Origin: a virus
Taxonomy: Duplodnaviria > Caudoviricetes
Virus record (IMG/VR): IMGVR_UViG_3300007512_001664
Location: 128,001 to 192,000 of that record
Direction: 5' to 3' (one strand)
Length of the DNA stretch: 64,000 nucleotides
Shown: positions 25,625-64,000 of the stretch, one piece after another
How positions within the stretch are numbered: the stretch's first letter is position 1
How the letters are laid out: each line of letters starts with the position of its first letter
Position numbers and translations under genes: made by a program
Notes under the pieces: generated by a model
What the model saw: only the letters and a program-made list of their open reading frames with translations
Database searches by the model: none
Told to the model about the DNA's origin: nothing

Positions 25625-25653
25625 AGTATAAAGAATATGAAGCAATAAATCAA
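25625..25653 (-). promoter_or_regulatory. Sigma70-like promoter TTGATT-17-TATACT
   Basis: 7 nt before the gp43 GTG. Confidence 0.65.
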
Positions 25654-38845: not shown

Positions 38846-39649
38846 TTGGTGATAAAAATATTTACAGGATGGAGTAATCCCGGTGGTTCTACTACAGCAT
38901 TTATTAATTTATGCAATTTATTTAATAACAACGGTCATGAATGTATAATGTACGGTCCTCATGACTGGCATCTCGATAAATGTAATGGTGCAAAGTTACA
39001 GACTGCAACCACTAAAGAATCAGATAAAGTTATATATCACTTTTTACATGTAAGAAAAACTAGACCTAATGTTGATAAATTTATTTTAAGCTTACATGAA
39101 AAAGAGCTATATCCGTTAAAGCAAACACCTGTTCATATTTTTGATAAAATACATTTTTTAAATAAACAGCAGTTACTATGGCACGAAGCTCATACTATAA
39201 AAAATTTATCTTGGTTTATTTGCGGTAACGTAAATGAAGATTTAAAACCTTTTAACAAACCTAAACAAAAAATTGCTGGTATTATAGGTAGTATTGATAA
39301 AAATAAACAAGTACATGTTTCTATAGAGAGAGCTATAAAAGATGGTCATACTGATATTCGAATATACGGGACAATAAATGATCCTGATTATTACGAAAGT
39401 GACGTAAAACCTGTTATTGAAAAGTATTCTAAACAAGTCAAACTAATTGGTTATGTAGAAGAGAAACAAACAATATATGATACCATAACTGACGTGTATC
39501 ATTCGTCATTATCCGAAAATGCTTCTCTTGTATCAGATGAGTGTAAGTTAACTGATGTAAGCTTTCATGGTAATGAAAATATTATAGAACAAAGTTTGTG
39601 GTCGAATGTTGGTATTTTAAAGATTTGGAGAGATCAATTAGAGTTATGA
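38846..39649 (+). CDS. GT-B-like glycosyltransferase
   Basis: GWSNPGGS, IAGIIGSID..K, VYHSS..E; start is TTG 38846 or GTG 38849. Confidence 0.65.
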   Translation: MVIKIFTGWSNPGGSTTAFINLCNLFNNNGHECIMYGPHDWHLDKCNGAKLQTATTKESDKVIYHFLHVRKTRPNVDKFILSLHEKELYPLKQTPVHIFDKIHFLNKQQLLWHEAHTIKNLSWFICGNVNEDLKPFNKPKQKIAGIIGSIDKNKQVHVSIERAIKDGHTDIRIYGTINDPDYYESDVKPVIEKYSKQVKLIGYVEEKQTIYDTITDVYHSSLSENASLVSDECKLTDVSFHGNENIIEQSLWSNVGILKIWRDQLEL

Positions 39650-40371
39650 GCAATATTATTCAAACATTATGGATCGGAGATACACTTTCATGTATGGAGA
39701 TTCTGTCTTTAAATTCGTTTGTTAAAAACGATATGGAAATTCATTTATATTGTTATGAAGACATAAAGAATGTACCAGATGGTGTTATCATAAAAGACGG
39801 TAAGGATATTCTTCCTAAAGAAGATGTTTTTGCTTATCAAGTGGGACCTGGTAAGGGCTCATATTCTGCTTTTTCTAATTATTTTCGGTATAAACTATTG
39901 TACGAAAAGGGAGGCTGGTGGGTTGATACTGATATGGTCTGCTTACAGCCATGGGAATTTGAAGACGAATATGTATTTTGCTCAGAGGAAGACTACGATA
40001 CACATAAACCTATATTAAACACAGGAGCCATTAAATGTCCGAAGGGAGATAAGTTAATGGATTATTGTTATAATGAGTGTTTAAAGAAAGATAAAAAAAC
40101 ATTAGAGTGGGGAATTGTCGGTCCTAGGTTATTGAATGAAGCTGTAAACAAATTTAATTATAATGAGTATATTAAACCTATACATACTTTTTGTTTTATT
40201 GCTCCCTTTAGATCAAATTTGTTCATCACTCCAGGCAAAGTAATGAAACCTAGTAATAGTATATACGGATTACATTTATGGAATGAAGCATGGAGACGTA
40301 TAGGTTTAGATAAGAAGGGTACTTATCCACCGACTTCAATCTATGAGCAATTAAAAGCAAAATATGTATAA
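39646..40371 (+). CDS. GT32-like (DXD) glycosyltransferase
   Basis: QTLWIG, FRYKLLYEKGGWWVDTD, GPRLL, HLWN; ATGA-coupled start at 39646. Confidence 0.82.
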   Translation: MSNIIQTLWIGDTLSCMEILSLNSFVKNDMEIHLYCYEDIKNVPDGVIIKDGKDILPKEDVFAYQVGPGKGSYSAFSNYFRYKLLYEKGGWWVDTDMVCLQPWEFEDEYVFCSEEDYDTHKPILNTGAIKCPKGDKLMDYCYNECLKKDKKTLEWGIVGPRLLNEAVNKFNYNEYIKPIHTFCFIAPFRSNLFITPGKVMKPSNSIYGLHLWNEAWRRIGLDKKGTYPPTSIYEQLKAKYV

Positions 40372-42004
40372 TATAGTATTTTTAGTTAATAAACAATATT
40401 TTGATACTAAAATGTCTCGTGTTAGGTTTCATTCTATACGAGCTTTATTTGATCATGTAGATGTTAACGGTATATATACTGGTCCGGGTTGGGATAATTG
40501 GGATTCTGGTTTATTAGCACAGGAGAATTTAGATAATATCCTTCAAGGAGATGAATGTCATTTAGTTATTGGTTATAAACCTCTTGAGATTTCTGGTTTT
40601 GCGGATATTACTTATACTAAATGTATTCGTTATAATGAAATGTATGATAAACAATGGACCTTAAGAGAAATAACTGAGAGTAAAGCTAATGTTATTGTAT
40701 GTCATCATTATAATGACTATAAAGAATATATAACTATCTTAAAAAATAAAAAACTTAATCATATTAAATCTTTAACATGGGTCCCCCATAGCGCAGAGTC
40801 TAGTATATTTAAACCTAAACCTGAAATAGAAAAAAAATATGATGTAGCATTAGTTGGTGCCACAAATGTTACAACAATGTTAGGCGAGCATTATCCTTTA
40901 AGAGCAAGAATGGCTAGATTACTTAATTTAATGCCATCAAAATATAAATGGGCAGTTATTCCTCATGTCGGTGGATCACATTCTGATGCATATACAGATA
41001 AATATGCACACGATTTTGCAGACAAAATAAATTCTTCGAAGATTATTATTACAGATAGTGGTGCACCTAAATCTAGGTTTGGAAAATATATAGAAGTCCC
41101 TATGTGCGGGGTCGCCTTAGCGGGTGATGTATACGATGATCATCCAAAAGATGTCGATCTGTTAAAATCTTTTTTGATTGATATTAATATGCAAATGTCT
41201 GATCAAGAAATTATTAAAAAACTTATTTATTATTTAGAAAATGACTCTGAAAGAGAAAAAAAAGTAAACTCCGGTATTCAGTATACTAAAGATTTTACTC
41301 AAGAAAGATATGCAGAGAGATTTATTAACATATTAAGCAGTATTCGAAAAAAACCTAGAGTTAATTATTTTGATTTAGGCTTACATACTGGTTTAGAATT
41401 GAAGTATGTTCTTACTCACATATTAACGCCTCATAAAAAGGTAATAGATTTTAAAACTTACGGCTTCGAGGCATCTGAGAAGTTCGCCCTACGTCTCGAG
41501 GAGCAATATCATCCCCAACCAGAGTTAAATACAACAATAATTCATAAGGCTATCTCAAATACAGAAGATAAGATTAAACTCTATCACGTTAACTTGGATA
41601 TACAACCGAACGAAGTTGGTAACTCTATTTTTAGAACTAAAAATAATGTAACAGATGAGTACGAGGAAGTTAAAGGTATTATATTTTCTAAATGGTTAAA
41701 AGAAAACGTACCTGATTATGAAGAGCATTTTAATATTTTAAAGGTTAATATAGAGGGTGCGGAATGGCATTTATTTAACGACATGGTAGATAATGATATG
41801 TTACAATACTTTCCGGTTATTTTAGGAGCGGGTCATGACGTGGATAAAGTCTCTGAACTTGATTCTGACAAATATTGGAAGCTTATTAAAGACAATAATA
41901 TAAACATTCATAGATTTGTAGCTGATTGGCGCCCGGAACTGAATGCGAATATATCTGAGATAATAAGAAAGGAGTTTAAATTATGGAAACAAAATCGGAT
42001 ATAG
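40364..42004 (+). CDS. GT-B-like glycosyltransferase fused to an FkbM-type methyltransferase
   Basis: N-terminus KYDVALVG..KYIEVPMCG; C-terminus YFDLGLHTG, YGFEA, LKVNIEGAE. Confidence 0.72.
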   Translation: MYNIVFLVNKQYFDTKMSRVRFHSIRALFDHVDVNGIYTGPGWDNWDSGLLAQENLDNILQGDECHLVIGYKPLEISGFADITYTKCIRYNEMYDKQWTLREITESKANVIVCHHYNDYKEYITILKNKKLNHIKSLTWVPHSAESSIFKPKPEIEKKYDVALVGATNVTTMLGEHYPLRARMARLLNLMPSKYKWAVIPHVGGSHSDAYTDKYAHDFADKINSSKIIITDSGAPKSRFGKYIEVPMCGVALAGDVYDDHPKDVDLLKSFLIDINMQMSDQEIIKKLIYYLENDSEREKKVNSGIQYTKDFTQERYAERFINILSSIRKKPRVNYFDLGLHTGLELKYVLTHILTPHKKVIDFKTYGFEASEKFALRLEEQYHPQPELNTTIIHKAISNTEDKIKLYHVNLDIQPNEVGNSIFRTKNNVTDEYEEVKGIIFSKWLKENVPDYEEHFNILKVNIEGAEWHLFNDMVDNDMLQYFPVILGAGHDVDKVSELDSDKYWKLIKDNNINIHRFVADWRPELNANISEIIRKEFKLWKQNRI

Positions 42005-42591
42005 ATTTTATAGTAAAAAAACATCACTTAAACGATACTGGTTTAACGAGACATTATTTAACTTTATACTCTATAGTTTTAGGAATGGAGTCGAAGAATG
42101 TATTTGAATTCGGCGCCGGTTTTTCGACTCAAGCAATGGTTGAGGCGTTAAAATTAACTGGCGGTAAATTAACTAGTGTAGATAAAAGGTCTCTATCTGA
42201 GCGAGAAGATATTCCTGATGATTTTGTAACTGATAGTAAGGATATATGGTCATTTTGCCCAGGAAACTCTTTAGATGTTGTACCTACTTTAGATCATAGT
42301 GAATGTTATGATGTTGTATTACATGACGGTTCTCATACTGATGTAGAAGTTACTAAAGATTTAAATAATATAGCTCCATATGTTAAAAGTGGAGGATTAG
42401 TTTTAGTACACGACACAGCTCATTATGATCTCGGTCCTGAAATGAGACGAGGCCTAGCAAATAGTGATTTAATTAAAAAATATAAACACGACGGAACAAC
42501 ATTACCTTATGGTTACGGTCTGACTATTGTAAAAATATTTGATAACCCTGATAATAATAAAAAAGTTAACATACTATGGAGAAAAGAATAA
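41983..42591 (+). CDS. Class I SAM methyltransferase (Methyltransf_24-like)
   Basis: VFEFGAGFST, LHDGSH, GGLVLVHD. Confidence 0.85.
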   Translation: METKSDIDFIVKKHHLNDTGLTRHYLTLYSIVLGMESKNVFEFGAGFSTQAMVEALKLTGGKLTSVDKRSLSEREDIPDDFVTDSKDIWSFCPGNSLDVVPTLDHSECYDVVLHDGSHTDVEVTKDLNNIAPYVKSGGLVLVHDTAHYDLGPEMRRGLANSDLIKKYKHDGTTLPYGYGLTIVKIFDNPDNNKKVNILWRKE

Positions 42592-43541
42592 CATTTCTTA
42601 CAACTCATCGTGACTTCAACACAGGCTCTTACAGGATCTGGATTCATGATCTTAATAATTATTTTCAACAATTAAATATACCCTCTCAGATTGCTCATGA
42701 TATTGGAGATGAAGAGATTGTTATTGTTGTAAAGGGTGAACTTGAATTAGCTCACAATATAAAAATAGCTCACCCAGAAAAAAAGGTAGGATTAATAAAT
42801 CCCGCGATAGGTAAATATGATTATTGTGATTTTCTTATTGTAGGTTCGATAGAAGAACAAGCAAGTTTATCAATGAACAAAAATGTATTTTTGTATCCGT
42901 TAATTGAAGAATTATATCAAAATATAGATATAAAAGAACATACTGATACAGATGTATTACGTTTTTGCTTTCATGGTCATTACCCTCATTTAGCTAAGTT
43001 TGATCCACATGTCAAACTCGCATTGGAAGAATTTTCTAAAGAGAGGGAAATTGAGCTGCTTATTATTCATGGCCATCCAGAGTTTGATTGGCAAATTGGT
43101 CGACCGGATATAAAAATAAAATATAAGCCATGGCATGCAGGTACAATAGCTCAGAATATTCTATCAGCTGATATAGGATTATGCCCTAATGTTACATATA
43201 TAGATGATTATAAGCGAGATCAGGTTATTGATACTGGAGCATATGACACGGATTATGTAGTTAGGTTTAAAAATAAATCTAACGCTGGTAGAGCGTTTGT
43301 TTTTCATCAATTAGGGTTACCTGTTGTAACAGATCTTACTCCCAGCAACTTACATATTCTAGGAAACCCTGAACATGGTTTAATTGCCGCAGATAAAGAC
43401 GGGTGGCTAAAGGCATTTAGACAGCTATCATCTTCTAATAACAGAAACGAAATGGCATTAAAGGCGAAACAAGAATTTGACAGGCTTTATGATCCGTTAG
43501 TATGGGCGAAGAGAATATATACACAGCTAAATGAGTTATAA
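42576..43541 (+). CDS. GT-B-like glycosyltransferase
   Basis: GSYRIW, DIGLCP, KSNAGR......LGLPVV. Confidence 0.65.
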   Translation: MEKRITFLTTHRDFNTGSYRIWIHDLNNYFQQLNIPSQIAHDIGDEEIVIVVKGELELAHNIKIAHPEKKVGLINPAIGKYDYCDFLIVGSIEEQASLSMNKNVFLYPLIEELYQNIDIKEHTDTDVLRFCFHGHYPHLAKFDPHVKLALEEFSKEREIELLIIHGHPEFDWQIGRPDIKIKYKPWHAGTIAQNILSADIGLCPNVTYIDDYKRDQVIDTGAYDTDYVVRFKNKSNAGRAFVFHQLGLPVVTDLTPSNLHILGNPEHGLIAADKDGWLKAFRQLSSSNNRNEMALKAKQEFDRLYDPLVWAKRIYTQLNEL

Positions 43542-44163
43542 AGAATTAGTTTCAAAATATGGCCGTGGTTTAATGAGTCATGTTCAGTATACTGAAATAG
43601 CTAAAGAGTTAGAGCCACACTGTCCTTGTAATTTACTAGTTTTCGGTTTAGGAGACGACTCTCATTTGTGGCAAAACTTAAACATTAAGGGTGTAACAGT
43701 TTTTTTAGAAGATGATCAATCTTGGATAGATAAAATTTCAAATAAAAGCACAGAAGATTGTTCATATTTTGAGAATACTAATGAATTAACGGTACATCAT
43801 ATAAATTATAAAACAAAGATACAAGATTATCATCAAATAAATCTCGGTGTTAGAGATGATTCATTTTTTGATGAGGAAGAAATTAAAATCGATTTACCTT
43901 CTGAAGTAACGGATATTTTATGGGATTTTATAATTGTAGATGGCCCGTTAGGTCATCAACCACCACGGCCATATAATGGACCAGGTCGGATGAGTAGTAT
44001 TTTTTCCGCTTATTCATTGATAAAAGAAGATGGCATTATTGTTATAGATGATTATAATAGAGGTATTGAAAAAACATATTCAGATCATTATTTTGGGAAA
44101 GAAAATTTATTTAAAATGGTAGAAGGAAAGGTAGGTTTTTTTAAAAATGCAAAAAAGAGATAA
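43531..44163 (+). CDS. DUF579 / Polysacc_synt_4 (GXM/IRX15-like) polysaccharide O-methyltransferase
   Basis: CNLLVFGLG.DS..W..LN..G.TVFLE.D..WI, WDFIIVDGP.G, PGRMSSI. Confidence 0.78.
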   Translation: MSYKELVSKYGRGLMSHVQYTEIAKELEPHCPCNLLVFGLGDDSHLWQNLNIKGVTVFLEDDQSWIDKISNKSTEDCSYFENTNELTVHHINYKTKIQDYHQINLGVRDDSFFDEEEIKIDLPSEVTDILWDFIIVDGPLGHQPPRPYNGPGRMSSIFSAYSLIKEDGIIVIDDYNRGIEKTYSDHYFGKENLFKMVEGKVGFFKNAKKR

Positions 44164-44890
44164 AGGTATAATTTATACAGTTTATAATGCACTGGGTAAT
44201 ATGGAATTTTTTAGAGAATTAAGTATCTCTGTAGAGTCTTTTAGAAAATTTCATCCTGATCTTCATATTACTTGCTTTTCTGATATGAAGCCAGATGAGT
44301 TATTAAAGTTAGTACCAGGTATTGATGAATGCATACAAATTAATTGCCAGATATTAAGAGCAAAGGTCGATGTACTTAAGCATTCTCCATATGAAAAGAC
44401 ATTGTTCCTTGATACAGACACAGTTTTTAACTATAATGTTTACGACATATTTGATATGTTAGATGAATATGAGCTAGTTATTACTCATTGTTTGGCTAGA
44501 AAGAGAGAAAAATATTCAAAATGTATACCTGAATATAAAAACATTCCATATGCTTTTTCAGAAGTTAATACTGGTGTTTTAGGATTTAAAAAGTGTGATA
44601 ATATAGATAACTTATTTGATCTTTGGCCGAAATATTATCGTAAGTATTACAATGTTTGTCCATATGATCAACCTACATTTAGAGTTTCTTTATGGGAATC
44701 AAAAGCTAGATTATATATTTTACCTCCAGAGTATAATGCTAGGAGTAAACAGAACAGAGAAAAACAAAGAACGTTTCATCATGAATTTGGTCATGAGCAT
44801 CTTAGAGAGAGAATTCTTCATATGCATCATAAACAAAAAAATCTCGATTCAGCATTACAATATTGCTTAGAGAATTATCTTGAATATTAA
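44147..44890 (+). CDS. GT-A (DXD) nucleotide-diphospho-sugar transferase
   Basis: AKVD, TLFLDTD, NTGV, DQP.FR, EYN. Confidence 0.75.
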   Translation: MQKRDKGIIYTVYNALGNMEFFRELSISVESFRKFHPDLHITCFSDMKPDELLKLVPGIDECIQINCQILRAKVDVLKHSPYEKTLFLDTDTVFNYNVYDIFDMLDEYELVITHCLARKREKYSKCIPEYKNIPYAFSEVNTGVLGFKKCDNIDNLFDLWPKYYRKYYNVCPYDQPTFRVSLWESKARLYILPPEYNARSKQNREKQRTFHHEFGHEHLRERILHMHHKQKNLDSALQYCLENYLEY

Positions 44891-47347: not shown

Positions 47348-47352
47348 ACTAT

Positions 47353-47382
47353 TTGACAAACTATTGTAATTATATATATAAG
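47353..47382 (+). promoter_or_regulatory. Sigma70-like promoter TTGACA...TATATA
   Basis: Perfect -35 at 47353-47358 and a TA-rich -10 at 47375-47382, immediately before ATG 47384. Confidence 0.6.
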
Positions 47383-47383
47383 G

Positions 47384-51156: not shown

Positions 51157-51162
51157 GAATAT

Positions 51163-56910: not shown

Positions 56911-57941
56911 GAATAGCAGTTTTATTATATGGACAGCCTCGCTTTTTTGAGCAAACATGGCAATATTTAAAAGAAGAGTTTAATCTACCCGGTGTAGAAT
57001 TTGATTTTTTCGCTCATTTTTGGAAAGGTGTTGGTTTTTCACCGAAAGACGATAAACAATTACGGTATATTGATAATTGTAGTTTAGTTAAAGATCGATT
57101 AACTAAATTAAATGTAAAAAAACAGTTGATCGAAGACTATAAACGTTTAGACGTCTTGTGTAAAACGTTTAACACTGTTCATAACTTTCTATTAAAGGGA
57201 AGCTTTAAAGAAGTATCTAATCCACTAGGGTATCGATATTATCTAGGTCAATATGTCAGTGTGTATAATGCACATTGCCTAATGGAGGAATATGAGGTTG
57301 AAAACAAGTTTAAATATGACGTTGTAGTTAAGGCTCGGTCTGATTTTATTTATAAAGATCGACGGTTTTATAAATCTGACGAAGAATATTTAGCTGCGAA
57401 GCGAGAAAATTATGTAGATAATTTTGAAGAAAATAAACATAAAAGATTTGCTAAGACTATTGATATAATTTATAAAAAATGGCTTCCATTTAACGACCCT
57501 CCGCAGTGGACAACATATAAAAAGATTGATTATTTTAAAAAAGATTGTATGGTACAAAACCGAGATAGACATAATATCTTAAGAATGGGAGATGTAAATA
57601 TAGCGACTAACAGATTAGCATCGGATTGCTTTTTTAAGTATTTTTTCACTACCACTTTTTGTACATTAGCTAATGATATACATAATCATAATACAGATCA
57701 ATTATTAATATACAAAAGACATGATGCTATGTTTGGCGATATTGCTATATTGTTTGACATAGAAGTTAAAAGAATTAAGAGATGTAGATATTTTAGGGTG
57801 GCGTATTTAAATAGTTGTAAGGAAACTTGGCTAAGAAATAAACACGGCACTATAGTTATAGATGATTTAAATTCAGACATATATGACGAAATAGAAGTGC
57901 AATTAAACCGTAACAAATGGATTCTTAAATATGGGATGTAA
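56907..57941 (+). CDS. G(Q/E)PR-family paralog 4
   Basis: MRIAVLLYGQPRFF, FFAHFW, YYLGQYVS, YDVVVKARSD. Confidence 0.7.
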   Translation: MRIAVLLYGQPRFFEQTWQYLKEEFNLPGVEFDFFAHFWKGVGFSPKDDKQLRYIDNCSLVKDRLTKLNVKKQLIEDYKRLDVLCKTFNTVHNFLLKGSFKEVSNPLGYRYYLGQYVSVYNAHCLMEEYEVENKFKYDVVVKARSDFIYKDRRFYKSDEEYLAAKRENYVDNFEENKHKRFAKTIDIIYKKWLPFNDPPQWTTYKKIDYFKKDCMVQNRDRHNILRMGDVNIATNRLASDCFFKYFFTTTFCTLANDIHNHNTDQLLIYKRHDAMFGDIAILFDIEVKRIKRCRYFRVAYLNSCKETWLRNKHGTIVIDDLNSDIYDEIEVQLNRNKWILKYGM

Positions 57942-59340
57942 GATATTTTATAAGGATGAAGTAATAAATCCTAAAAAGGAAATTGTACCGATATACGATG
58001 ATAATTTAGATATACAGGTTGAAAAACGATATTATAGTAGTAAAAATCAATTAGGTGTAGCTGGTCCCGAGCAATACTTATTCGAAAAAAAGTGCTTAAC
58101 TTTATTGGAACAAAATTATGAAGATTTGTATAATGTAAATTTTTATCCTTTCCCTAGAATTATAAAAGATGATCCTACAGAGCCTAAACTATGGTTAAAT
58201 TTTTGTGGTAATACAATTAAAAACGTGTATCATTGTACATTGCTACAACAATCTCACAGTGAGTATAATAATGTATTAGATAATATTAACGATCAAATAA
58301 AAAATATTATTTATAATTTAAAAAAGAATAATATTTATCATTTAGACGTAAAACAATCAAATGTTTGCGTGAATAAGGCAGGATATATTTCTCTTATAGA
58401 CTTCGGTATTGGTTTTATTGATTCCGCTGAGTCAGTTGAATACGTTTATCTAAATCAAAAACGAAAACGAGATAGACAGCATTGGTTTGATACTAAATTA
58501 GTTAACGATTTTAATGTTATTGTTAGTCATCTTAAAAGACCAGTTATTACTGCCGTGATGCCATGTTATAACCGTCCAAATGGAGCTAAAAGACAAATTT
58601 TAAATATTTGTAAGCAAAATATTAATAGTTGGGAAGCTTTTATAGTAGGAGATTGTTGCGAACAGTTTGAAAAAGAAGTTATACCGAATGTTGAGGTTAA
58701 TAAAAACTTAAACAGAGCCAGAAGACGTGGTAATATAATACATTCAAGTAAGCAATGGGGAGAAAGTGTGCTCCCGGTACCTCATTTTTTTAACAGATCG
58801 AAAGGATCTGGGCCATATGGTTATAAAAAATATCCTATATTAGGAAGCCCCGGCAAGTGGGGCACCGGTATTATAAATTTTGCACGTAAATATGCTATAG
58901 GAGAATATTTTATATGGCTCAGTGATGATGATATTATAACTAAAAATCATTTTGAAAATTATCTTTCTTATATTAAAGATACTGATTACGATATGATTAT
59001 TCTCGATGATTATGCCGGTGAGTCGCGAACACGCCGAGGAGCTCGAAAAAGTAAAACGTATATTCGGTCTAAAGGTAAGAAAAAAAATGAGAATGATGGT
59101 ATTGTAAGAGGGAGTGTAGGTCATAGTAATGTGATTGTTAGGACTGATTTTTTAAGAACGATTCCAGAAACTTCTAGAGAGCGTCGCACTCATGATTTTG
59201 TTATGATATCTGATATAATAAATGCAGGAGGTAAATATAAAATCGTACATGACAATCAGTGTACATATTGGACCAAATACACTGATAGATTTGATAATTG
59301 GGATGGTCAACGCGAGGGGGTGTATCTCGGTAACCGGTAA
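57931..59340 (+). CDS. Protein-kinase-like domain fused to a GT2 domain
   Basis: EK.CL, FPRI, HLDVKQSN, LIDFG; then VMPCYNR, IVGD, YFIWLSDDD. Confidence 0.75.
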   Translation: MGCKIFYKDEVINPKKEIVPIYDDNLDIQVEKRYYSSKNQLGVAGPEQYLFEKKCLTLLEQNYEDLYNVNFYPFPRIIKDDPTEPKLWLNFCGNTIKNVYHCTLLQQSHSEYNNVLDNINDQIKNIIYNLKKNNIYHLDVKQSNVCVNKAGYISLIDFGIGFIDSAESVEYVYLNQKRKRDRQHWFDTKLVNDFNVIVSHLKRPVITAVMPCYNRPNGAKRQILNICKQNINSWEAFIVGDCCEQFEKEVIPNVEVNKNLNRARRRGNIIHSSKQWGESVLPVPHFFNRSKGSGPYGYKKYPILGSPGKWGTGIINFARKYAIGEYFIWLSDDDIITKNHFENYLSYIKDTDYDMIILDDYAGESRTRRGARKSKTYIRSKGKKKNENDGIVRGSVGHSNVIVRTDFLRTIPETSRERRTHDFVMISDIINAGGKYKIVHDNQCTYWTKYTDRFDNWDGQREGVYLGNR

Positions 59341-59342
59341 AA

Positions 59343-60131
59343 ATGTCTAAAGTTATATATACTATTTGTAGTTATGAAGATGAACATTCTGATATAGTAA
59401 ATGGCTGTATTAATAGCTCTCTTGTAACTATAAAAAGATATGCCGATTTTCATGGTGCTGATTTAAAAATTATAAAGGATATACCCGACGACATTACTAA
59501 CTTACTCAACGATATATCTATTGTTTATAATAAAAAAATAAAGCATGAATATAAAGCATGGAATACAAAATTTTTCTTAATACGTGAATTTTATAAAAGT
59601 AATTATGATAAGATGATTTATATTGATTGTGATCATTTTATTAAAAATTATAATATTGATGTATTTAAATATGACGAGTGTTTTAATATAAAAAGAAAAA
59701 TTCAGAAACCCGGTAGAATAGTTCATGATCCTATTAAATTATGTAGACAATTTTTAGATAAAGATATTAATACATATTTTAATGCTAGTTTTTTTTATTT
59801 AACAAAAAACTATAAATATAATTTAGCTGAGATATTTAATTTTAATGATATATATAATTTATGGAAATTAGATATTGGGTTTTTGAGAGAAGAGTGTAGT
59901 TTGGCACACTTAATGCATACGCATAATATACAAAAACATATAGATTTTGAATTAGCGGATAATTTATATATTTACAGTAAAAATAATAAGAAGAATATTG
60001 GATTATATACGGGTATACCTGGTAGAACTGGTGAAATGAAATATGATTTTTTAAAAAATGTAATACTTAGCGATTCATCGTTTGATTATTCCTTAGCGCT
60101 ACAGCAGTGGCGCGACACCCGAAAAAAGTAA
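59343..60131 (+). CDS. GT-A (DXD) glycosyltransferase-like protein
   Basis: YADFHG, WNTKF, MIYIDCD, FNASFF, EE..L. Confidence 0.65.
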   Translation: MSKVIYTICSYEDEHSDIVNGCINSSLVTIKRYADFHGADLKIIKDIPDDITNLLNDISIVYNKKIKHEYKAWNTKFFLIREFYKSNYDKMIYIDCDHFIKNYNIDVFKYDECFNIKRKIQKPGRIVHDPIKLCRQFLDKDINTYFNASFFYLTKNYKYNLAEIFNFNDIYNLWKLDIGFLREECSLAHLMHTHNIQKHIDFELADNLYIYSKNNKKNIGLYTGIPGRTGEMKYDFLKNVILSDSSFDYSLALQQWRDTRKK

Positions 60132-60133
60132 AT

Positions 60134-61036
60134 ATGTCAAAGTGTAATATTGCTATTTGTTTAAGCGGCGAGCCGCGATTGAGTAATTTATCGAGTGCTA
60201 GTATTAAAAGATTAAAAGCTTTTTGTTATAAGCAATATGGAGCAGATGTTAATATTGATGTATTTTATCATTTTTGGGATTCCGTAACAGAAAATATTTA
60301 TAAGCAATATAAATATGAATTTGACAGGGATAATGTTAAAATAAAATATGCAAATTCAAGTGATCTAAAAAATGAGTTTGAGCCTACTATAGGTGTATGT
60401 GAAAGTAAAGAAGAATTAAACGACCCAATAGATAAAAGTTTTAATTATATTCACAGTTTCCTGACTAAAGACTTTATCATCAAACCAACGTATTTTAAAG
60501 GATGGTGTTCCTATTTTAAAGATTTAAAGGTATTTAGGGATATAGTAAAATATACTAATATCCCTACTCTATCACAAGTAATAAGTTTATGTAAATGTCA
60601 ATTATTAAGACTTAAATACGAAAAAAACCATAATATAAAATATGATCTAATTATTAGAACTAGATCTGATATAGAAATAAAATTACCTGAATGTGATATT
60701 ATATCATATTGTAGACGTCCAAAAATGAGAATGTTAATACAATTTCCATTTGGTAATATAGATATTAAATATCATAATGATCCATTATTTTATTATACAA
60801 GATATGTGGATCTCCATTTCCAGTGTTGTTTTTTTCTTTCGACATCACACGTTTTAGTCGAGGGTATTTTTGATAATTATGTAGAAAAAATATACAAACA
60901 GATGTTTTCAATTGACAAACAAAGCGATCGTTTAGGTCTGTTGACCGATCATCAGGTAATACCTCAGTTTTTCGCAAGTCAAGGGTGTAAATTTAAAATA
61001 CCTTTAGACGGTATAGATTATCGTCTAATACATTAA
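60134..61036 (+). CDS. G(Q/E)PR-family paralog 5
   Basis: IAICLSGEPR, FYHFW, SQVIS, YDLIIRTRSD; likely start is ATG 60134. Confidence 0.7.
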   Translation: MSKCNIAICLSGEPRLSNLSSASIKRLKAFCYKQYGADVNIDVFYHFWDSVTENIYKQYKYEFDRDNVKIKYANSSDLKNEFEPTIGVCESKEELNDPIDKSFNYIHSFLTKDFIIKPTYFKGWCSYFKDLKVFRDIVKYTNIPTLSQVISLCKCQLLRLKYEKNHNIKYDLIIRTRSDIEIKLPECDIISYCRRPKMRMLIQFPFGNIDIKYHNDPLFYYTRYVDLHFQCCFFLSTSHVLVEGIFDNYVEKIYKQMFSIDKQSDRLGLLTDHQVIPQFFASQGCKFKIPLDGIDYRLIH

Positions 61037-61038
61037 TC

Positions 61039-61046
61039 TATAAATA
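61039..61046 (+). promoter_or_regulatory. Late promoter TATAAATA
   Basis: Perfect consensus 11 nt before ATG 61058. Confidence 0.6.
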
Positions 61047-61057
61047 ATTACATTGAT

Positions 61058-61963
61058 ATGGTGATATTAAACGACGGGTGCTCACATTCTGCAAAATCGG
61101 TAACTGATGAAGAAATCAATTACCATGGAAGCAGAACATCTTATTGTGATTTTTTACCGGGTCAAATATATAATATTGCTAAACCAGGGACTGGTATTGA
61201 TTCCTCTCGTGTTGAGAAATTTATAAAGAAGACCGAGCTTGATAGTTTAAATAACGAATTAACACATTTTATTTTTCAAATACCAAGCCCGTCAAGACAA
61301 ACCCTGTATTTAAACTTAACTGACGAAAAATTTTTTGAAGCTCCAATGAATTATTGGACTGATAAGGCAGGTCGAGACTTGAGAGGTTTTATGAAAAAGA
61401 AACGAGAAGTGCTACCAGAGGTCGATTTTGGTTGTTCCGTTGATCATAAAACCAAATCAGCATTACGTGTCGTCAGTGTTGTTGAACTTGAGCCAGATGA
61501 TTATAATAAACATTTTTTTAAATTTACGTATGATAATTTTTCATGGACTCATATTAAGGATAATTTTTGTATACCAGCTACTTTGTGGAGTACTTTAAGA
61601 GCACATACTGCTATATCAATTAATTCATTTATTATGGATATATTTAAATCGGAAGACAAATATTTTAAAAAAGCAATAAACGAAGTAGATAGAGCGGTTC
61701 GTTTAGTTAAAGAACAATGGCCAAATATAAAAATTATATTCTTACGCTATGAAGAAAGTGGCATGCCGTTAATTTATGAGTTTTGTAAACCGTTTTATAA
61801 AAAAGACTTATCAGATTATTGTAATAAAAATGATATAACATACATAAATGAAAAAAACTTTAATACAGAATGGTTCCGTTTAAATAATCTTACGAACGAT
61901 ACTCGACATCCTAATGATGAAGGAGCAAAATTAATAGCAGAAAAAATTAAACAGTTTTTATGA
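61058..61963 (+). CDS. SGNH-hydrolase-like protein
   Basis: DGCSHS, NIAKPGTG, DTRHPNDEG...IA. Confidence 0.65.
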   Translation: MVILNDGCSHSAKSVTDEEINYHGSRTSYCDFLPGQIYNIAKPGTGIDSSRVEKFIKKTELDSLNNELTHFIFQIPSPSRQTLYLNLTDEKFFEAPMNYWTDKAGRDLRGFMKKKREVLPEVDFGCSVDHKTKSALRVVSVVELEPDDYNKHFFKFTYDNFSWTHIKDNFCIPATLWSTLRAHTAISINSFIMDIFKSEDKYFKKAINEVDRAVRLVKEQWPNIKIIFLRYEESGMPLIYEFCKPFYKKDLSDYCNKNDITYINEKNFNTEWFRLNNLTNDTRHPNDEGAKLIAEKIKQFL

Positions 61964-62073
61964 AAAAAATATTATTAAAAATACGATTAAAGATTGCGTC
62001 TTTAAAACAATGGTATTTGCAGAAATATCATAAAAAGAGATATGATTCTGGTAATAATTATCCTTTTATGTAG
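61960..62073 (+). CDS. Possible 37-aa basic peptide
   Basis: ATGA-coupled to the SGNH gene: MKKILLKIRLKIASLKQWYLQKYHKKRYDSGNNYPFM*. Confidence 0.3.
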   Translation: MKKILLKIRLKIASLKQWYLQKYHKKRYDSGNNYPFM

Positions 62074-62081
62074 CCTGGTGA

Positions 62082-62909
62082 ATGAATTATATTTTTACCC
62101 AACATATAACACCCAGTACAGGAAAACATCATCCCGGTATTAATATACTTTTAGACTCTATACAGTCATTAAATGATGATACAATAAGAGTAATTTTATT
62201 TTACCATGGGTATGATGATGATCTATTTCACAAATATAAAGACTTCCTTACAATTGTAGACATTAATAATAGAGGTAACTGGATTCCAGTTATGTACTCA
62301 CCAGTTCAACGATGGTATTTATATAGAAACTATATTGAACAAAATATACATAGATTTAATAACAATGATAAATTCTTTCATTGTAATAGTAAAGATACAA
62401 TTTTCCAAAAAAATATTTTTAATGAAATAGAAAACAAAAACAAAACAGTGTTCTTCACAGAGCAAGACGAATTTACCATATCACATAATAATATCATATG
62501 TGGAGGTGCTATATATTTTGATACATTAGCAAACTTCCTCCAGTTTTTATCCGCATATACATCATATCAACTCATATGTATGAATAATAACAGTAAATTT
62601 AAAAGATGTGTTTATAATAGAATGGGAAAAGTAAATGATCAAGGTGTAATTAATAGTCTTGTCTATAATGAACCACGTCCTCAATATAAAATTCTTAAGA
62701 ATAATTATTTGAGGTTAGTATGTGCAATGTCGTCAATGACGCAATGTAATGAACAACCTGATATTAAAATAAAAAATAATATAATTTATATTAATAGTGT
62801 TATTCCATGTGTTATACATCAATATGATAAATTTGTAAAAATTACTGACTTTTTTAAAAAAATTAACCTTATGTATAGGCTCTATATGGTGCCACTTTCA
62901 TCTTATTAA
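62082..62909 (+). CDS. Hypothetical protein, GT-A-like
   Basis: R..LY..Y, KDTIFQ, ICGGAI, NDQGVIN, IHQYD. Confidence 0.6.
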   Translation: MNYIFTQHITPSTGKHHPGINILLDSIQSLNDDTIRVILFYHGYDDDLFHKYKDFLTIVDINNRGNWIPVMYSPVQRWYLYRNYIEQNIHRFNNNDKFFHCNSKDTIFQKNIFNEIENKNKTVFFTEQDEFTISHNNIICGGAIYFDTLANFLQFLSAYTSYQLICMNNNSKFKRCVYNRMGKVNDQGVINSLVYNEPRPQYKILKNNYLRLVCAMSSMTQCNEQPDIKIKNNIIYINSVIPCVIHQYDKFVKITDFFKKINLMYRLYMVPLSSY

Positions 62910-63998
62910 TTTTTTATATTGTTCCTCTACCGATATATCAGAATCCGCTAATACTCTAACATGAGGTCGGTTTAAAATAAATTCTTTAGTATGTTCATTA
63001 GCAATTTTTATAAATCGGTTAGGAATAATCATTTTATTATAATGCTCAAAACCTAATTCTGAAGCACATATACCATTTAAACCTAAAACTTCTCCGCATA
63101 CGAGCTCCCCAGCAGCCCAGTTATTATCTATACCATTTTCTATTAGAAATTGTTTAGATTTTTTAATTAAATGTATAATAGTGTTAACATATTGTTTCAT
63201 ACTTAATAACATTTCTGAACCAGATCCTACCATAAACCAGTCTTTCATGTGTAAGTATTGTGTTTCAGGGTTATATGTATGAGATTTTGTATTTTTACTA
63301 TTCGATGTATGTAGCTTCTTCGTTATGCTCGATTTATGTGGCCTTGCTGTCATTTTGTTATTCGCATACTTAAATCTACTACAAAAAATTCTTTCCTTAG
63401 GTCCGTAGTTTGGTAACCCAGATTTATTTTTTACACCTACATCGTCTGAATGACATGATCCTTCCCAGATTTGCAAATCCCCGGTTCTACAGAAAATACC
63501 TTTATCTAAATTTTCTATTCTATTATAAAATAATTGTTTATCATTTAAGTAATCTGTTTTATTTTTATATAAGTCAGGAGTAACAAATAATACATCCGTT
63601 CTTAATCTAAAAATATAATCATATTCCTCTCCTTCTTCTTCTACCAACTTCGCTCCCTCTTGTAATGATACAAACTGACCAAGAAAATATGTTAAATTTT
63701 TCGGTTGTGTGACTTCAAAAATAGTCTTCCTTAAACGACTGGCGTGTCTCTGTATATTATCATTGTTAAGTTTTTGAACATTGTTTATAATATCTTCTAT
63801 AGTATCTGTTGGTAGTAATTCTTTTTCTGGTGTACCGTGTTTTTCATCTAAAAATTTGTTTAATTCTTTTTTTTGTTTTTTTACTATACGGTATACATCA
63901 TCGCATGTTTCTTCTAATACAGAATAATCAGTAAAAGAATATTTTTTGGGTTTATAAGTGTCTACTATATTTGCTTTGTCTGTATCGGTTAATTTATA
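62898..63998 (-). CDS. G(Q/E)PR-family paralog 6, 5'-truncated by the window edge
   Basis: The frame is open from the window end (..TYFLGQFVSLQEG..EYDYIFRLRTDV..KDWFMVG), so the listed start at 63647 is internal. Confidence 0.7.
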   Translation of the reverse strand, partial: YKLTDTDKANIVDTYKPKKYSFTDYSVLEETCDDVYRIVKKQKKELNKFLDEKHGTPEKELLPTDTIEDIINNVQKLNNDNIQRHASRLRKTIFEVTQPKNLTYFLGQFVSLQEGAKLVEEEGEEYDYIFRLRTDVLFVTPDLYKNKTDYLNDKQLFYNRIENLDKGIFCRTGDLQIWEGSCHSDDVGVKNKSGLPNYGPKERIFCSRFKYANNKMTARPHKSSITKKLHTSNSKNTKSHTYNPETQYLHMKDWFMVGSGSEMLLSMKQYVNTIIHLIKKSKQFLIENGIDNNWAAGELVCGEVLGLNGICASELGFEHYNKMIIPNRFIKIANEHTKEFILNRPHVRVLADSDISVEEQYKKLIR

Positions 63999-64000
63999 CT

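What the first reader, a model, noticed from the sequence alone, without database searches (positions are those of the whole stretch)
38846..64000. A 25-kb soluble glycan-assembly island in a T4-like phage, resembling giant-virus glycosylation loci
Seen: about 28 coupled genes, including roughly 10 GT domains of several families, 6 GQPR-family paralogs, 5 methyltransferase domains, 2 cytidylyltransferases, an aldolase, HAD-NTase, a kinase and an SGNH protein; the island continues past the window edge. I see no signal peptides, TM-rich flippase/polymerase (Wzx/Wzy), ABC exporter or undecaprenyl-P initiating transferase here. Established: chloroviruses and mimiviruses glycosylate their own virion proteins with soluble virus-encoded enzymes. 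Inference: this phage builds a complex, methylated, acidic glycan in the cytoplasm, most plausibly on capsid or fibre proteins (a glycan shield or adhesion coat). Alternatives are DNA or host-surface remodelling.
Basis: partly seen in the sequence, partly recalled or inferred. Interest (0 to 1): 0.8.

Follow-up and report, generated by a model that had tools for sequence, protein, structure and literature searches.

The report
Variable glycan-building island in marine phage
A complete 200-kb T4-like marine phage spends about 14% of its genome on soluble sugar-activating, sugar-transferring and methylating enzymes whose central part is swapped between near-identical strains; islands of this kind are already known in marine T4-like phages, and what the sugar chain is attached to (virus particle or host surface) cannot be told from sequence.

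Summary
Window 38846-62909 carries 28 tightly coupled plus-strand genes. The island runs about 4 kb past the window edge, roughly 28 kb of a complete 200,819-bp T4-like phage genome. It is phage DNA: it is collinear in three other IMG/VR contigs and present in at least 20 marine metagenome runs.

Content:
- five Pfam-level glycosyltransferase domains and several weaker ones;
- five methyltransferase domains;
- two NeuA-like cytidylyltransferases, an intact HpcH pyruvate aldolase, a HAD-nucleotidyltransferase fusion, and a dehydrogenase fused to a GT29-like domain;
- six "GQPR" paralogs, which model (pLDDT 96) as GT-A-fold transferases of a large, mostly viral family.

No ORF of at least 60 aa in the genome is a polytopic membrane protein.

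New here: the middle of the island (51163-62909) is replaced by a different cassette in a strain whose flanks are 95-100% identical. Across about 70 related contigs, GQPR arrays vary between conserved anchor genes.

The acceptor is unresolved. Soluble enzymes fit virion glycosylation (about 0.4) and also LOS-type host-envelope remodelling (about 0.35). GT-rich islands are published for cyanomyoviruses and pelagimyophages, and this scan has noted about 179 soluble phage glycosyltransferase islands in other genomes. I class it as a new variant of a known kind.

The parts
38846..51156 (+). Left module: 14 genes for sugar activation, transfer and methylation, conserved in strains of this phage
   Evidence: 95-99% protein identity in contigs L004 and L005. 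Pfam content.
51163..62909 (+). Variable cassette: 14 genes (5 GQPR paralogs, 2 methyltransferases, TOD1-like GT, kinase-GT2, SGNH-like, unknowns)
   Evidence: In strain G001 it is replaced by a different 8-gene, 7.2-kb cassette between flanks 95-100% identical. It is collinear but diverged in L007.
38846..39649 (+). Candidate GT-B (GT4-like) glycosyltransferase
   Evidence: Weak Glyco_trans_1_4 match (E 0.14) and a GT4-type N-terminal GGS...GHE motif read from the sequence. Lead only.
39598..40371 (+). GT32-type glycosyltransferase (DXD sugar-binding region)
   Evidence: PF04488, 29.7 bits, above cut-off.
40364..42004 (+). Two-domain protein: GT1-like domain plus FkbM methyltransferase
   Evidence: PF13524 and PF05050, both just under cut-off; TIGR01444 6e-7. 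The C-terminal part differs in L004/L005.
41983..42591 (+). SAM methyltransferase (Methyltransf_24)
   Evidence: PF13578, 5.5e-16.
42576..43541 (+). GT-B glycosyltransferase
   Evidence: ESM Atlas features score 0.97 to Glyco_trans_1_2 clusters. No direct Pfam hit.
43531..44163 (+). GXM/IRX15-type (glucuronoxylan 4-O-methyltransferase-like) methyltransferase
   Evidence: PF21729, 2e-32; TIGR01627, 1e-31.
44147..44890 (+). Candidate GT8-like GT-A transferase
   Evidence: PF01501, E 0.02; DTD motif. Lead only.
44890..46488 (+). Fusion of a D-2-hydroxyacid dehydrogenase (residues ~1-250) with a GT29 sialyltransferase-like domain (~255-532)
   Evidence: PF02826, 2.6e-32. The Arg/Glu/His triad is present. 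For the C-terminal domain: atlas score 0.87 to viral GT29 clusters, homologues P0152/P0153 carry PF00777 on the aligned stretch, and there is no direct PF00777 hit.
46454..47347 (+). GT2 glycosyltransferase
   Evidence: PF00535, 22.1 bits, just under cut-off. Homologues 48-50% identical sit in distant T4-like cassettes.
47384..48085 (+). Cytidylyltransferase A (CMP-ulosonic acid synthetase type)
   Evidence: PF02348, 1.7e-13; PseF 2e-15. 32% identical to cytidylyltransferase B.
48057..48737 (+). HpcH/HpaI class II pyruvate aldolase
   Evidence: PF03328, 3.8e-19. HpaI residues E44-H45, R70, E149 and D175 are conserved in the alignment to 4b5s.
48734..49171 (+). Small GDPD-like protein
   Evidence: HRG and E-x-D-V motifs only; no family hit. 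It co-occurs with the HAD-NTase in 11 related loci.
49140..50540 (+). HAD (beta-phosphoglucomutase-type) fused to a sugar-1-phosphate nucleotidylyltransferase
   Evidence: PF13419, 1e-27, and PF00483, 2e-12. NCBIfam bPGM and RmlA/GlmU-type hits.
50512..51156 (+). Cytidylyltransferase B (NeuA-like); conserved left anchor of the variable cassette
   Evidence: PF02348, 1e-20. Best PDB matches are NeuA, 8e-19, ahead of KdsB, 1e-4. 82-91% identical in related phages with different cassettes.
51163..51759 (+). SAM methyltransferase (Methyltransf_11)
   Evidence: PF08241, 7.7e-13.
51752..52429 (+). TOD1/MUCI70-type glycosyltransferase-like protein
   Evidence: PF04765, 6.8e-12.
52422..53267 (+). Unknown protein, possible glycosyltransferase
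   Evidence: Atlas score 0.88-0.89 to GT10 and RXYLT1_C clusters, a lead only. Homologues occur in other cassettes.
53267..54394 (+). GQPR paralog 1 (GT-A fold family)
   Evidence: phrog_13607, 8e-20.
54340..55395 (+). GQPR paralog 2, interrupted by a premature stop (TAA at 54991)
   Evidence: Read as two ORFs, 54340-54993 and 55030-55395. It is intact (351 and 333 aa) in L004 and L007. A single AAA to TAA change separates it from L004.
55382..55984 (+). SAM methyltransferase (Methyltransf_24)
   Evidence: PF13578, 1.2e-8.
55981..56910 (+). GQPR paralog 3
56907..57941 (+). GQPR paralog 4 (the one modelled)
   Evidence: AF2 model, pLDDT 95.9, pTM 0.93. VIA Z 10-13 to GT-A glycosyltransferases only. 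Foldseek.
57931..59340 (+). Kinase-like domain (Kdo-kinase/Bud32-like) fused to GT2
   Evidence: PF00535, 5.5e-10; Pkinase 7e-6, below cut-off. Weak KdkA/Bud32 hits.
59343..60131 (+). Unknown protein, GT-A-like by motif
   Evidence: DCD motif; phrog_28746, 5e-4. Homologue in L016.
60107..61036 (+). GQPR paralog 5 (divergent, GEPR)
   Evidence: faint DUF7796.
61058..61963 (+). SGNH/GDSL-like hydrolase or acyl-esterase candidate
   Evidence: N-terminal DGCSHS and C-terminal D-x-x-H motifs only; no family hit. TATAAATA lies 12 nt upstream.
62082..62909 (+). Unknown protein
   Evidence: No hit. 71% identical in L007.
62898..64000 (-). GQPR paralog 6 (416 aa, runs to window-equivalent 64148); right anchor of the variable cassette
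   Evidence: 96% identical in G001 and 50-57% identical in wider relatives, always next to the radical SAM gene.

Best explanation
The island is a phage-owned, wholly soluble glycan assembly line that works in the infected cell's cytoplasm.

Shown from sequence:
- Enzymes for activated sugars: an intact class II pyruvate aldolase, two NeuA-like cytidylyltransferases, and a HAD-mutase/phosphatase fused to a sugar-1-phosphate nucleotidylyltransferase.
- About 15 transferase-like domains of GT-A, GT-B and GT29-like types.
- Five O-methyltransferase-type domains, a kinase-like domain and a possible esterase.
- No membrane protein.

Inferred:
1. The aldolase condenses pyruvate with an aldose to give a 2-keto-3-deoxy (ulosonic) acid. 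This stands in for the missing NeuB/KdsA.
2. A cytidylyltransferase makes the CMP-sugar.
3. The GT29-like domain and the other transferases add residues one linkage each.
4. Methylation and phosphorylation finish an acidic, methylated oligosaccharide.

The left module and cytidylyltransferase B are kept. The transferase cassette between cytidylyltransferase B and the GQPR/radical-SAM anchor is exchanged between strains, so the population carries several 'glycotypes' built on a common activated sugar.

My preferred acceptor, held with low confidence, is the phage's own virion proteins (head, tail or fibre), glycosylated before or during assembly. The model is flagellin glycosylation by Maf enzymes, mycobacteriophage capsids and giant-virus capsids or fibrils.
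For: Phage origin:
- Complete genome with a 119-bp terminal repeat and T4-like core genes on both sides.
- Uniform GC.
- Collinear in three other IMG/VR contigs and present in at least 20 marine runs from 15 studies.

Enzyme content:
- Family hits.
- Aldolase catalytic residues are kept.
- Cytidylyltransferase B is nearest to NeuA.
- No NeuB or KdsA in the genome.
- GT29-like domain by transitive homology.
- The GQPR family has a GT-A fold.

No membrane parts.

Cassette exchange.

For a virion acceptor (all indirect):
- The GQPR and GT29-like families sit in clusters that are 77-100% viral in the ESM Atlas. This suggests a long-resident phage system rather than freshly captured host O-antigen genes.
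- The island is co-oriented with, and directly upstream of, the helicase-gp15-sheath-tube-portal-gp23 block across the genome end.
- In distant T4-likes a GQPR + NTase + GT2 + GDPD-like cassette lies 3-5 kb from gp23.
- In close relatives a methyltransferase plus a GQPR fragment sits beside the variable 1247-aa homologue of the 1379-aa protein.
- Virion glycosylation has precedent in mycobacteriophages (Freeman 2023, as cited in PMC12619734).
Against: - No evidence identifies the acceptor.
- The island is not inside the structural operon. It is separated from gp15 by about 8 kb that includes a helicase.
- gp23 has ordinary length, and no ORF carries a Ser/Thr-rich tag.
- Timing is unknown. Promoter scans gave fewer sites than shuffles, and TATAAATA is not enriched overall.
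- No RNA run holding the stretch was listed.
- Several families here (GT25, GT8-like, GT2, NeuA-like, Kdo-kinase-like) are the classic lipooligosaccharide set.
- Published work reads such genes in marine T4-like phages as host-surface modification (PMC7029224, PMC12801897), though without experiments.
- The aldolase route to a ulosonic acid is inference only. The aldolase and the DH-GT29 gene are confined to this strain cluster, so they are accessory rather than core.
Confidence: 0.4

Rival explanations
1. Host-envelope remodelling. The soluble transferases extend or rebuild the host's lipid A-core (LOS-type), or an undecaprenyl-linked O-antigen or capsule intermediate, at the cytoplasmic face of the inner membrane. 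The host's own MsbA/Lpt, Wzx/Wzy or ABC machinery exports the product. The changed surface would block superinfection by competing phages or alter grazing and adhesion during the long latent period of marine infections. Cassette variation would track variable host glycan acceptors.
For: - The family set GT25, GT8-like, GT2, NeuA-like cytidylyltransferases, a sialyltransferase-like domain and a Kdo-kinase-like domain mirrors bacterial LOS outer-core loci. Those enzymes are soluble or peripheral (established knowledge), so the lack of phage membrane proteins fits equally well.
- This is the published reading for pelagimyophage and cyanomyovirus GT clusters (PMC7029224; PMC12801897).
- Hypervariable cassettes between conserved flanks resemble bacterial O-antigen/LOS loci.
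- There are no glycosylation tags on virion proteins.
Against: - The main transferase families are overwhelmingly viral in the Atlas. The aldolase has no counterpart in cultured phages beyond two Staphylococcus records.
- A strictly lytic phage gains little from new LPS in a non-growing cell whose old receptors stay in place (inference).
- 28 kb is a large price next to the single small exclusion proteins T4 uses (established knowledge).
- Several families (GXM-type methyltransferase, TOD1/MUCI70, GT29-like, RXYLT1-like lead) are not typical of bacterial LPS loci.
- The host is unknown.
Confidence: 0.35
2. Another acceptor: a non-virion phage or host protein, a secreted or lysis-released polysaccharide, or a small glycoconjugate made during infection.
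For: - Nothing in the data fixes the acceptor.
- The genome also encodes two pilin-like proteins, a protein class often glycosylated in bacteria (established knowledge).
- An N-terminal-twitch radical SAM enzyme is the conserved neighbour of the cassette.
Against: No specific support. About 15 transferases suggest a long structural glycan rather than a metabolite.
Confidence: 0.15
3. DNA hypermodification: the transferases decorate modified bases in phage DNA with glycans.
For: - Phage glycosyltransferases that hypermodify DNA are known (Pyle 2024, cited in PMC12619734).
- According to other first-reader notes, not checked here, this genome has deazaguanine genes elsewhere.
Against: - Known DNA glycosylation uses one to a few transferases.
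- CMP-ulosonic acid enzymes, about 15 transferases, sugar O-methyltransferases of the GXM/FkbM type and strain-level cassette swapping fit a structural glycan, not a base modification.
- No base-hydroxymethylase lies in the island.
Confidence: 0.04
4. Artefact: host DNA joined to a phage contig by mis-assembly.
For: None found.
Against: - The same gene order occurs in independent contigs from three other samples, with phage genes on both sides.
- The record is complete and terminally repeated.
- GC is uniform.
- Two further GQPR paralogs lie in other parts of the phage genome.
- 71 other viral contigs carry the family.
Confidence: 0.01

Closest known systems
Cell-wall/LPS gene clusters of large T4-like cyanomyoviruses (P-SSM2, S-SCSM1, S-SCSM2R; PMC12801897)
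   Same: Lytic marine T4-like myoviruses of about 200 kb or more with clustered glycosyltransferases of several families (13 in S-SCSM2R, reported there as possibly the record), nucleotide-sugar enzymes and a CMP-Kdo synthetase. The target is untested.
   Different: - The DNA polymerase here is only about 30% identical to any cultured phage, and there is no psbA.
- About 15 transferase-like domains lie in one co-directional block.
- An aldolase stands in place of KdsA or NeuB.
- There is a DH-GT29-like fusion.
- The dominant transferase family (GQPR) is nearly absent from cultured phages: 5 weak hits.
Pelagimyophage host-recognition cluster, a hypervariable island with glycosyltransferases (PMC7029224)
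   Same: A large non-syntenic island in marine T4-like phages, next to the neck and structural genes and rich in glycosyltransferases. Its content varies between relatives.
   Different: - That island holds tail-fibre genes and mostly GT8 enzymes. Here no fibre gene was seen inside the island.
- The variable part here is bounded by a conserved cytidylyltransferase and a GQPR/radical-SAM pair.
- Relatedness to HTVC008M is remote.
Mycobacteriophage virion glycosylation (Che8, Corndog, Myrna; Freeman et al. 2023, cited in PMC12619734 and PMC12801897)
   Same: Phage-encoded soluble glycosyltransferases with no export machinery. This is the only experimentally shown case of phage self-glycosylation.
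   Different: There, two to four genes lie beside the structural genes and the glycans sit on C-terminal parts of the capsid and tail-tube subunits. Here the island has about 30 genes, lies outside the structural operon, and no tag or extension is visible.
Giant-virus glycosylation loci (chlorovirus PBCV-1 A064R and others; mimivirus fibril clusters); from my own knowledge
   Same: Virus-encoded nucleotide-sugar synthesis together with multi-domain soluble transferases and methyltransferases (FkbM type). Content is clade-specific.
   Different: Those are eukaryotic viruses with no shared gene order. The only sequence links are leads: one GVMAG-labelled contig with GQPR genes and a Nucleocytoviricota cluster near 52422.
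Campylobacter LOS and flagellin-glycosylation loci (CstII/NeuA sets; Maf paralog families); from my own knowledge
   Same: Soluble enzymes only, CMP-nonulosonic acid activation, expanded paralogous transferase families and strain-to-strain cassette variation.
   Different: These are bacterial chromosomal loci that use NeuB-type synthases. No Maf (PF01973) or GT42 hit was obtained here.

Membership tests
T4-like myovirus | gp23-type major capsid protein | tested here: met
   PF07068, 5.2e-90, at genome 9064-10230.
T4-like myovirus | T4-type replication and neck/tail genes (family B DNA polymerase, gp41-like helicase, gp46/47, gp15, TerL) | tested here: met
   PHROG and Pfam hits. Identity to cultured T4-likes is only about 30%.
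GT-A fold glycosyltransferase (for the GQPR/phrog_13607/DUF7796-like paralogs) | Rossmann-like GT-A fold | tested here: met
   Model pLDDT 95.9. VIA Z 10.4-12.9 over 180-230 residues, and all 50 top entries are GT-A transferases. Foldseek probability 0.96-1.0, but TM only 0.3-0.46.
GT-A fold glycosyltransferase (for the GQPR/phrog_13607/DUF7796-like paralogs) | DxD metal/nucleotide-sugar motif after strand 4 | tested here: inconclusive
   The family has an invariant R-x-D (R144, D146) plus D138, not a classical DxD. Metal-independent GT6 enzymes are among the best fold matches.
GT-A fold glycosyltransferase (for the GQPR/phrog_13607/DUF7796-like paralogs) | Glycosyl transfer activity | not testable with these tools
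   Sugar nucleotidyltransferases share the fold (GMPPA and AGPase among the Foldseek hits). The N-terminal G-Q-P-R resembles their G-x-G-x-R loop (my reading).
GT29 sialyltransferase family (C-terminal domain of 44890) | Match to the family profile PF00777 | tested here: not met
   No match in the genome at E up to 10, nor in Pfam scans.
GT29 sialyltransferase family (C-terminal domain of 44890) | Homology to proteins that do match PF00777, over the same stretch | tested here: met
   P0152, 8e-11, and P0153, 2e-4. BLASTP 4e-13. Their PF00777 matches cover the aligned motif-L region. Atlas score 0.87, with 219 of 256 features shared.
GT29 sialyltransferase family (C-terminal domain of 44890) | Sialyl motifs L and S | tested here: inconclusive
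   Motif-L-like and motif-S-like stretches were read by eye. They were not aligned to a curated GT29 set, and no usable model was obtained.
Undecaprenyl-phosphate-dependent surface-polysaccharide locus (Wzx/Wzy or ABC type) | Priming phosphoglycosyl transferase | tested here: not met
   No PF02397 match. No hydrophobic segment in any island ORF.
Undecaprenyl-phosphate-dependent surface-polysaccharide locus (Wzx/Wzy or ABC type) | Polytopic flippase, polymerase or permease | tested here: not met
   No ORF of at least 60 aa in the whole genome has more than three hydrophobic segments, and none looks polytopic.
CMP-ulosonic/nonulosonic acid pathway | CTP_transf_3 cytidylyltransferase | tested here: met
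   Two copies. Copy B is nearest to NeuA structures.
CMP-ulosonic/nonulosonic acid pathway | PEP-dependent synthase (NeuB or KdsA) | tested here: not met
   No PF03102 or PF00793 match in the genome. An HpcH pyruvate aldolase with intact active site is adjacent instead. Its role as the synthase is inference.
Phage virion-glycosylation system (mycobacteriophage type) | Transferase genes embedded in or abutting the virion structural operon | tested here: inconclusive
   The island is co-oriented with and upstream of the gp15-to-gp23 block but about 8 kb from gp15. In distant relatives a similar cassette lies 3-5 kb from gp23.
Phage virion-glycosylation system (mycobacteriophage type) | Acceptor tags or extensions on virion proteins | tested here: not met
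   No Ser/Thr tracts. gp23 is 523 aa.
Phage virion-glycosylation system (mycobacteriophage type) | Glycan present on virions | not testable with these tools
   Needs purified particles.
Hypervariable island of marine T4-like phages | Non-syntenic content between conserved flanks at a fixed genome position | tested here: met
   Cassette replacement in G001. Variable GQPR arrays lie between cytidylyltransferase B (82-91% identical) and the GQPR/rSAM/GT25/DUF366 anchors in L016, L019, L020, L023, L025 and L081.

The most novel reading that the evidence does not exclude
A widespread lineage of marine T4-like phages coats its own particles with an acidic, methylated glycan. The structure of that glycan is switched between strains by exchanging cassettes of a phage-specific GT-A transferase family (GQPR/DUF7796-like). 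All variants are built on a conserved CMP-activated sugar, in this strain supplemented by an aldolase-made ulosonic acid. That would be a 'viral serotype' system in bacteriophages, comparable in scale to giant-virus glycosylation.
Probability: 0.35. Interest if true: 0.8.

Novelty: new variant of a known kind. Interest (0 to 1): 0.6.

Why it matters
Glycosyltransferase-rich islands in marine T4-like phages have been described for years, but their target has never been tested.

This locus is a clean, complete and environmentally widespread example. It has three features that make the question tractable:
1. The whole genome lacks any membrane export part.
2. The dominant transferases belong to a large family (more than 3,000 clusters at 50% identity), mostly viral and until now unannotated. 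It models confidently as a GT-A fold.
3. The transferase cassette is exchanged between otherwise near-identical strains, flanked by conserved anchors. This is the signature of diversifying selection on an exposed glycan.

If the glycan is on the virion, marine phages have serotype-like coats that would affect adsorption, decay, grazing and particle stickiness. If it is on the host, it is an unusually costly superinfection or surface-masking strategy.

The aldolase plus NeuA-like pair also suggests a route to CMP-ulosonic acids without NeuB or KdsA.

Tried and rejected
- Megablast of 11 kb of the island against cultured phages: no match.
- Single-sequence AlphaFold of the DH-GT29 fusion: unusable, pLDDT 32. 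It used one of the two structure jobs, so the GT29-like domain has no model.
- Direct PF00777 search of the genome: nothing.
- Relaxed Pfam and NCBIfam on the unknown ORFs: almost nothing.
- PHROGs on the unknowns: only families of unknown function.
- Sigma-70 promoter and terminator scan: fewer sites than in shuffles, so no timing information. TATAAATA is not enriched genome-wide (51 found against about 59 expected). It sits 2-12 nt before 11 start codons, including a ribonucleotide reductase, so it is not a usable late-gene marker.
- Sequencing runs: DNA holders only. No RNA run holding the stretch was listed.
The share of the GQPR family in cellular genomes was therefore not measured; only Atlas taxon shares are available.
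- Ser/Thr-tag search prompted by earlier scan notes: negative.
- Literature search for DUF7796: no paper. Search for phage GT29: nothing relevant.
- Mis-assembly and DNA modification were considered and rejected as main explanations (see rivals).

Full report
**Where the window lies.** The window is bases 128001-192000 of a 200,819-bp IMG/VR virus record classed as having direct terminal repeats and 100% complete. I found a 119-bp exact terminal repeat. The phage is T4-like:
- gp23 major capsid protein, PF07068 5e-90;
- gp15 tail-sheath stabiliser;
- T4-type DNA polymerase, gp41-like helicase, gp46/47-like nuclease and large terminase.

It is far from anything cultured. The DNA polymerase is at most 31% identical to phages such as Pelagibacter phage HTVC008M and Synechococcus myoviruses. 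There is no psbA. GC is 0.27-0.34 throughout, with no break at the island. Sequence words from the island occur in at least 20 marine, seawater or estuary metagenome runs from 15 studies.

**The observation.** From 38846 to 62909 there are 28 plus-strand ORFs. They overlap or are separated by less than 40 nt, except for one 118-nt gap. Pfam and NCBIfam confirm:
- five glycosyltransferase domains: 39598, 40364 N-terminal, 46454, 51752 and 57931 C-terminal (two of them just under the curated cut-off);
- five methyltransferase domains: 40364 C-terminal FkbM, 41983, 43531 GXM type, 51163 and 55382;
- two CTP_transf_3 cytidylyltransferases (47384, 50512);
- an HpcH aldolase (48057);
- a HAD plus NTP_transferase fusion (49140);
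- a D-2-hydroxyacid dehydrogenase with a 280-residue extension (44890);
- a kinase-like domain fused to GT2 (57931).

Weaker evidence adds these:
- 42576 as GT-B (Atlas 0.97);
- 38846 and 44147 (weak Pfam plus motifs);
- 59343 and 52422 (motifs, or an Atlas lead below 0.9);
- 61058 as SGNH-like and 48734 as GDPD-like, by motifs only.

The island continues past the window edge. It includes the sixth GQPR gene (to 64148, minus strand), an N-terminal-twitch radical SAM enzyme (NF033640, 1e-23), a GT25 and another methyltransferase. The total is about 28 kb, or 14% of the genome.

**No membrane machinery.** A hydropathy scan of all 258 ORFs of at least 60 aa finds no hydrophobic segment in any island ORF and no polytopic membrane protein in the whole genome. 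A six-frame search for the priming transferase family PF02397 finds nothing.

**The GQPR paralogs.** BLASTP and alignment define six island copies and two distant copies elsewhere (genome 28253-29188 and 94601-95596).
- Conserved positions are an N-terminal G-Q-P-R, H-x-W, G-Q-x-x-S and Y-D-x-V-x-x-x-R-x-D.
- The family matches phrog_13607 (function unknown). Distantly it matches Pfam DUF7796: 29 of 82 members, best 5e-8.
- A profile search of 1.8 billion cluster representatives finds 3,153 at E up to 1e-3.
- With an 82-sequence alignment, AlphaFold gives a model of 56907 with pLDDT 95.9 and pTM 0.93.
- Foldseek against the PDB and Swiss-Prot returns only GT-A or nucleotide-diphospho-sugar-transferase folds, with high probability but TM 0.3-0.46.
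- VIA-align gives Z 10.4-12.9 over 180-230 residues. All 50 listed entries are GT-A glycosyltransferases, including ColGalT1, BoGT6a, chlorovirus hyaluronan synthase, GnT-I, WrtF and LH3.
- The nearest ESM Atlas shapes (TM 0.6-0.7) are unnamed clusters that are 96-100% viral.

I read the family as a phage-typical GT-A-fold transferase. Activity is untested. The classical DxD is replaced by R-x-D. Nucleotidyltransferases share the fold, so that alternative stays open.

One copy (54340) is cut by a single AAA to TAA change at 54991. It is intact in two relatives.

**The sugar-activation block.**
- The aldolase keeps the HpaI catalytic and metal residues E44-H45, R70, E149 and D175.
- Cytidylyltransferase B is closest to NeuA structures (8e-19), well ahead of KdsB (1e-4).
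- The genome has neither NeuB nor KdsA.
- The dehydrogenase domain of 44890 keeps its Arg/Glu/His triad.
- The C-terminal domain of 44890 has no direct PF00777 hit. It is, however, homologous (8e-11; BLASTP 4e-13) to metagenomic proteins whose aligned stretch does match PF00777. Atlas features point to viral GT29-like clusters (0.87). I also see motif-L-like and motif-S-like stretches.

The inferred route is pyruvate plus aldose, to a 2-keto-3-deoxy acid, to a CMP-sugar, to transfer by the GT29-like domain. Other first-reader notes on this genome proposed the same route. It remains inference. The HAD-nucleotidyltransferase fusion probably supplies an NDP-hexose.

**Comparative genomics, the main new result.** Three other IMG/VR contigs carry the island in the same order at 84-99% nucleotide identity. 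This, together with the phage genes on both sides, rules out mis-assembly.

In one of them (G001) the genes up to cytidylyltransferase B are 91-99% identical and the genes from the minus-strand GQPR onward are 92-100% identical. Yet the 14 genes of 51163-62909 (11.7 kb) are replaced by a different 8-gene, 7.2-kb cassette. Its GQPR genes are only 27-36% identical to those here.

A pattern search found 71 further viral contigs with the family, often as arrays of three to six copies within 20 kb. In the relatives with most context (L016, L019, L020, L023, L025, L081):
- cytidylyltransferase B (82-91% identical) marks one side;
- the GQPR(-)/radical SAM/GT25/DUF366 group (50-95% identical) marks the other side;
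- the genes between differ in number, order and strand.

The aldolase and the DH-GT29 gene occur only in this strain cluster. The island is thus a fixed-position hypervariable locus: a conserved activated-sugar gene with exchangeable transferase cassettes.

**What the glycan is attached to.** This cannot be decided here.

For virion proteins:
- the main transferase families are overwhelmingly viral;
- the island is co-oriented with and directly upstream of the helicase, gp15, sheath, tube, portal and gp23 block across the genome end;
- in distant T4-likes a GQPR, NTase, GT2 and GDPD-like cassette lies 3-5 kb from gp23, and in close relatives a methyltransferase plus a GQPR fragment sits beside a variable 1247-aa structural-region protein;
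- experimental precedent exists in mycobacteriophages (cited in PMC12619734).

Against virion proteins:
- the island is not inside the structural operon;
- gp23 has ordinary length;
- no Ser/Thr tags exist;
- timing is unknown.

For the host envelope:
- GT25, GT8-like, GT2, NeuA-like, sialyltransferase-like and Kdo-kinase-like enzymes form the classic lipooligosaccharide set;
- those enzymes are soluble and need no phage exporter;
- this is the published, though untested, reading for pelagimyophages and cyanomyoviruses (PMC7029224; PMC12801897).

I put virion glycosylation at about 0.4, host-envelope remodelling at 0.35, another acceptor at 0.15, DNA modification at 0.04 and artefact at 0.01.

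**Comparison and novelty.** The kind is known.
- S-SCSM2R is reported with 13 glycosyltransferases and 22 cell-wall genes, including KdsA and KdsB.
- Pelagimyophages have a hypervariable island rich in glycosyltransferases.
- This scan has logged about 179 notes on soluble phage glycosyltransferase islands in at least 173 other genomes.

What differs here:
- the scale in one operon-like block;
- the GQPR GT-A family and its arrays;
- the anchor-cassette architecture with strain-level replacement;
- the aldolase in place of NeuB or KdsA;
- the dehydrogenase-GT29-like fusion.

I class it as a new variant of a known kind, with interest 0.6.

Noticed in passing
genome 63416-64411 and 64393-65385, minus strand (L008:1416-2411 and 2393-3385); outside the window: Two adjacent paralogs (42% identical, about 330 aa) start with a prokaryotic N-terminal methylation (type IV pilin-like) motif and a single hydrophobic helix. 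One has TATAAATA 9 nt upstream. Pilin-like proteins encoded by a T4-like phage are unusual.
   Followed up: partly
window 54991: A single AAA to TAA change splits one GQPR paralog into ORFs 54340-54993 and 55030-55395. The gene is intact in contigs L004 and L007. It is either a strain-specific pseudogene or a consensus error.
   Followed up: yes
window-equivalent 64145-65194, minus strand (L002:2145-3194): A radical SAM enzyme of the N-terminal-twitch class (NF033640, 1e-23) is the most constant neighbour of GQPR arrays: 25 of 71 loci, 67-78% identical. Its substrate is unknown. It may be a sugar-modifying radical enzyme.
   Followed up: partly
window-equivalent 68027-68614 (L002:6027-6614): A DUF366 protein is 91-96% identical across phages whose neighbouring genes are only 40-80% identical. 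That is unusually strong conservation for an unknown function.
   Followed up: no
whole genome; e.g. window 4514, 33321, 61039: TATAAATA lies 2-12 nt upstream of 11 start codons, much closer than a T4 late promoter would sit. The genes are of mixed function and include a ribonucleotide reductase. The motif is not enriched genome-wide. It may be a translation-initiation or leaderless-transcript signal.
   Followed up: partly
window 25650-26870, minus strand: A 406-aa glycosyltransferase (phrog_7162, 1e-21) sits directly beside the DNA polymerase gene, apart from the island. No Pfam hit.
   Followed up: no
L037-L039 (IMG/VR contigs related to genome 17-24 kb): In close relatives a small methyltransferase and a 103-aa GQPR N-terminal fragment are inserted next to the variable 1247-aa homologue of the 1379-aa protein (38% identical, while the neighbours are 80-89% identical). 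This looks like a second variable spot in the structural region.
   Followed up: partly
L058 (IMGVR_UViG_GVMAG-M-3300009001-5_000001, 7.5 kb): A contig binned as a giant-virus MAG carries two GQPR-family genes. The bin assignment of so short a contig is uncertain.
   Followed up: no
genome 41898-41984 and 46023-46099: Only two tRNA genes (Leu-TAA, Thr-TGT) in a 200-kb phage genome.
   Followed up: no
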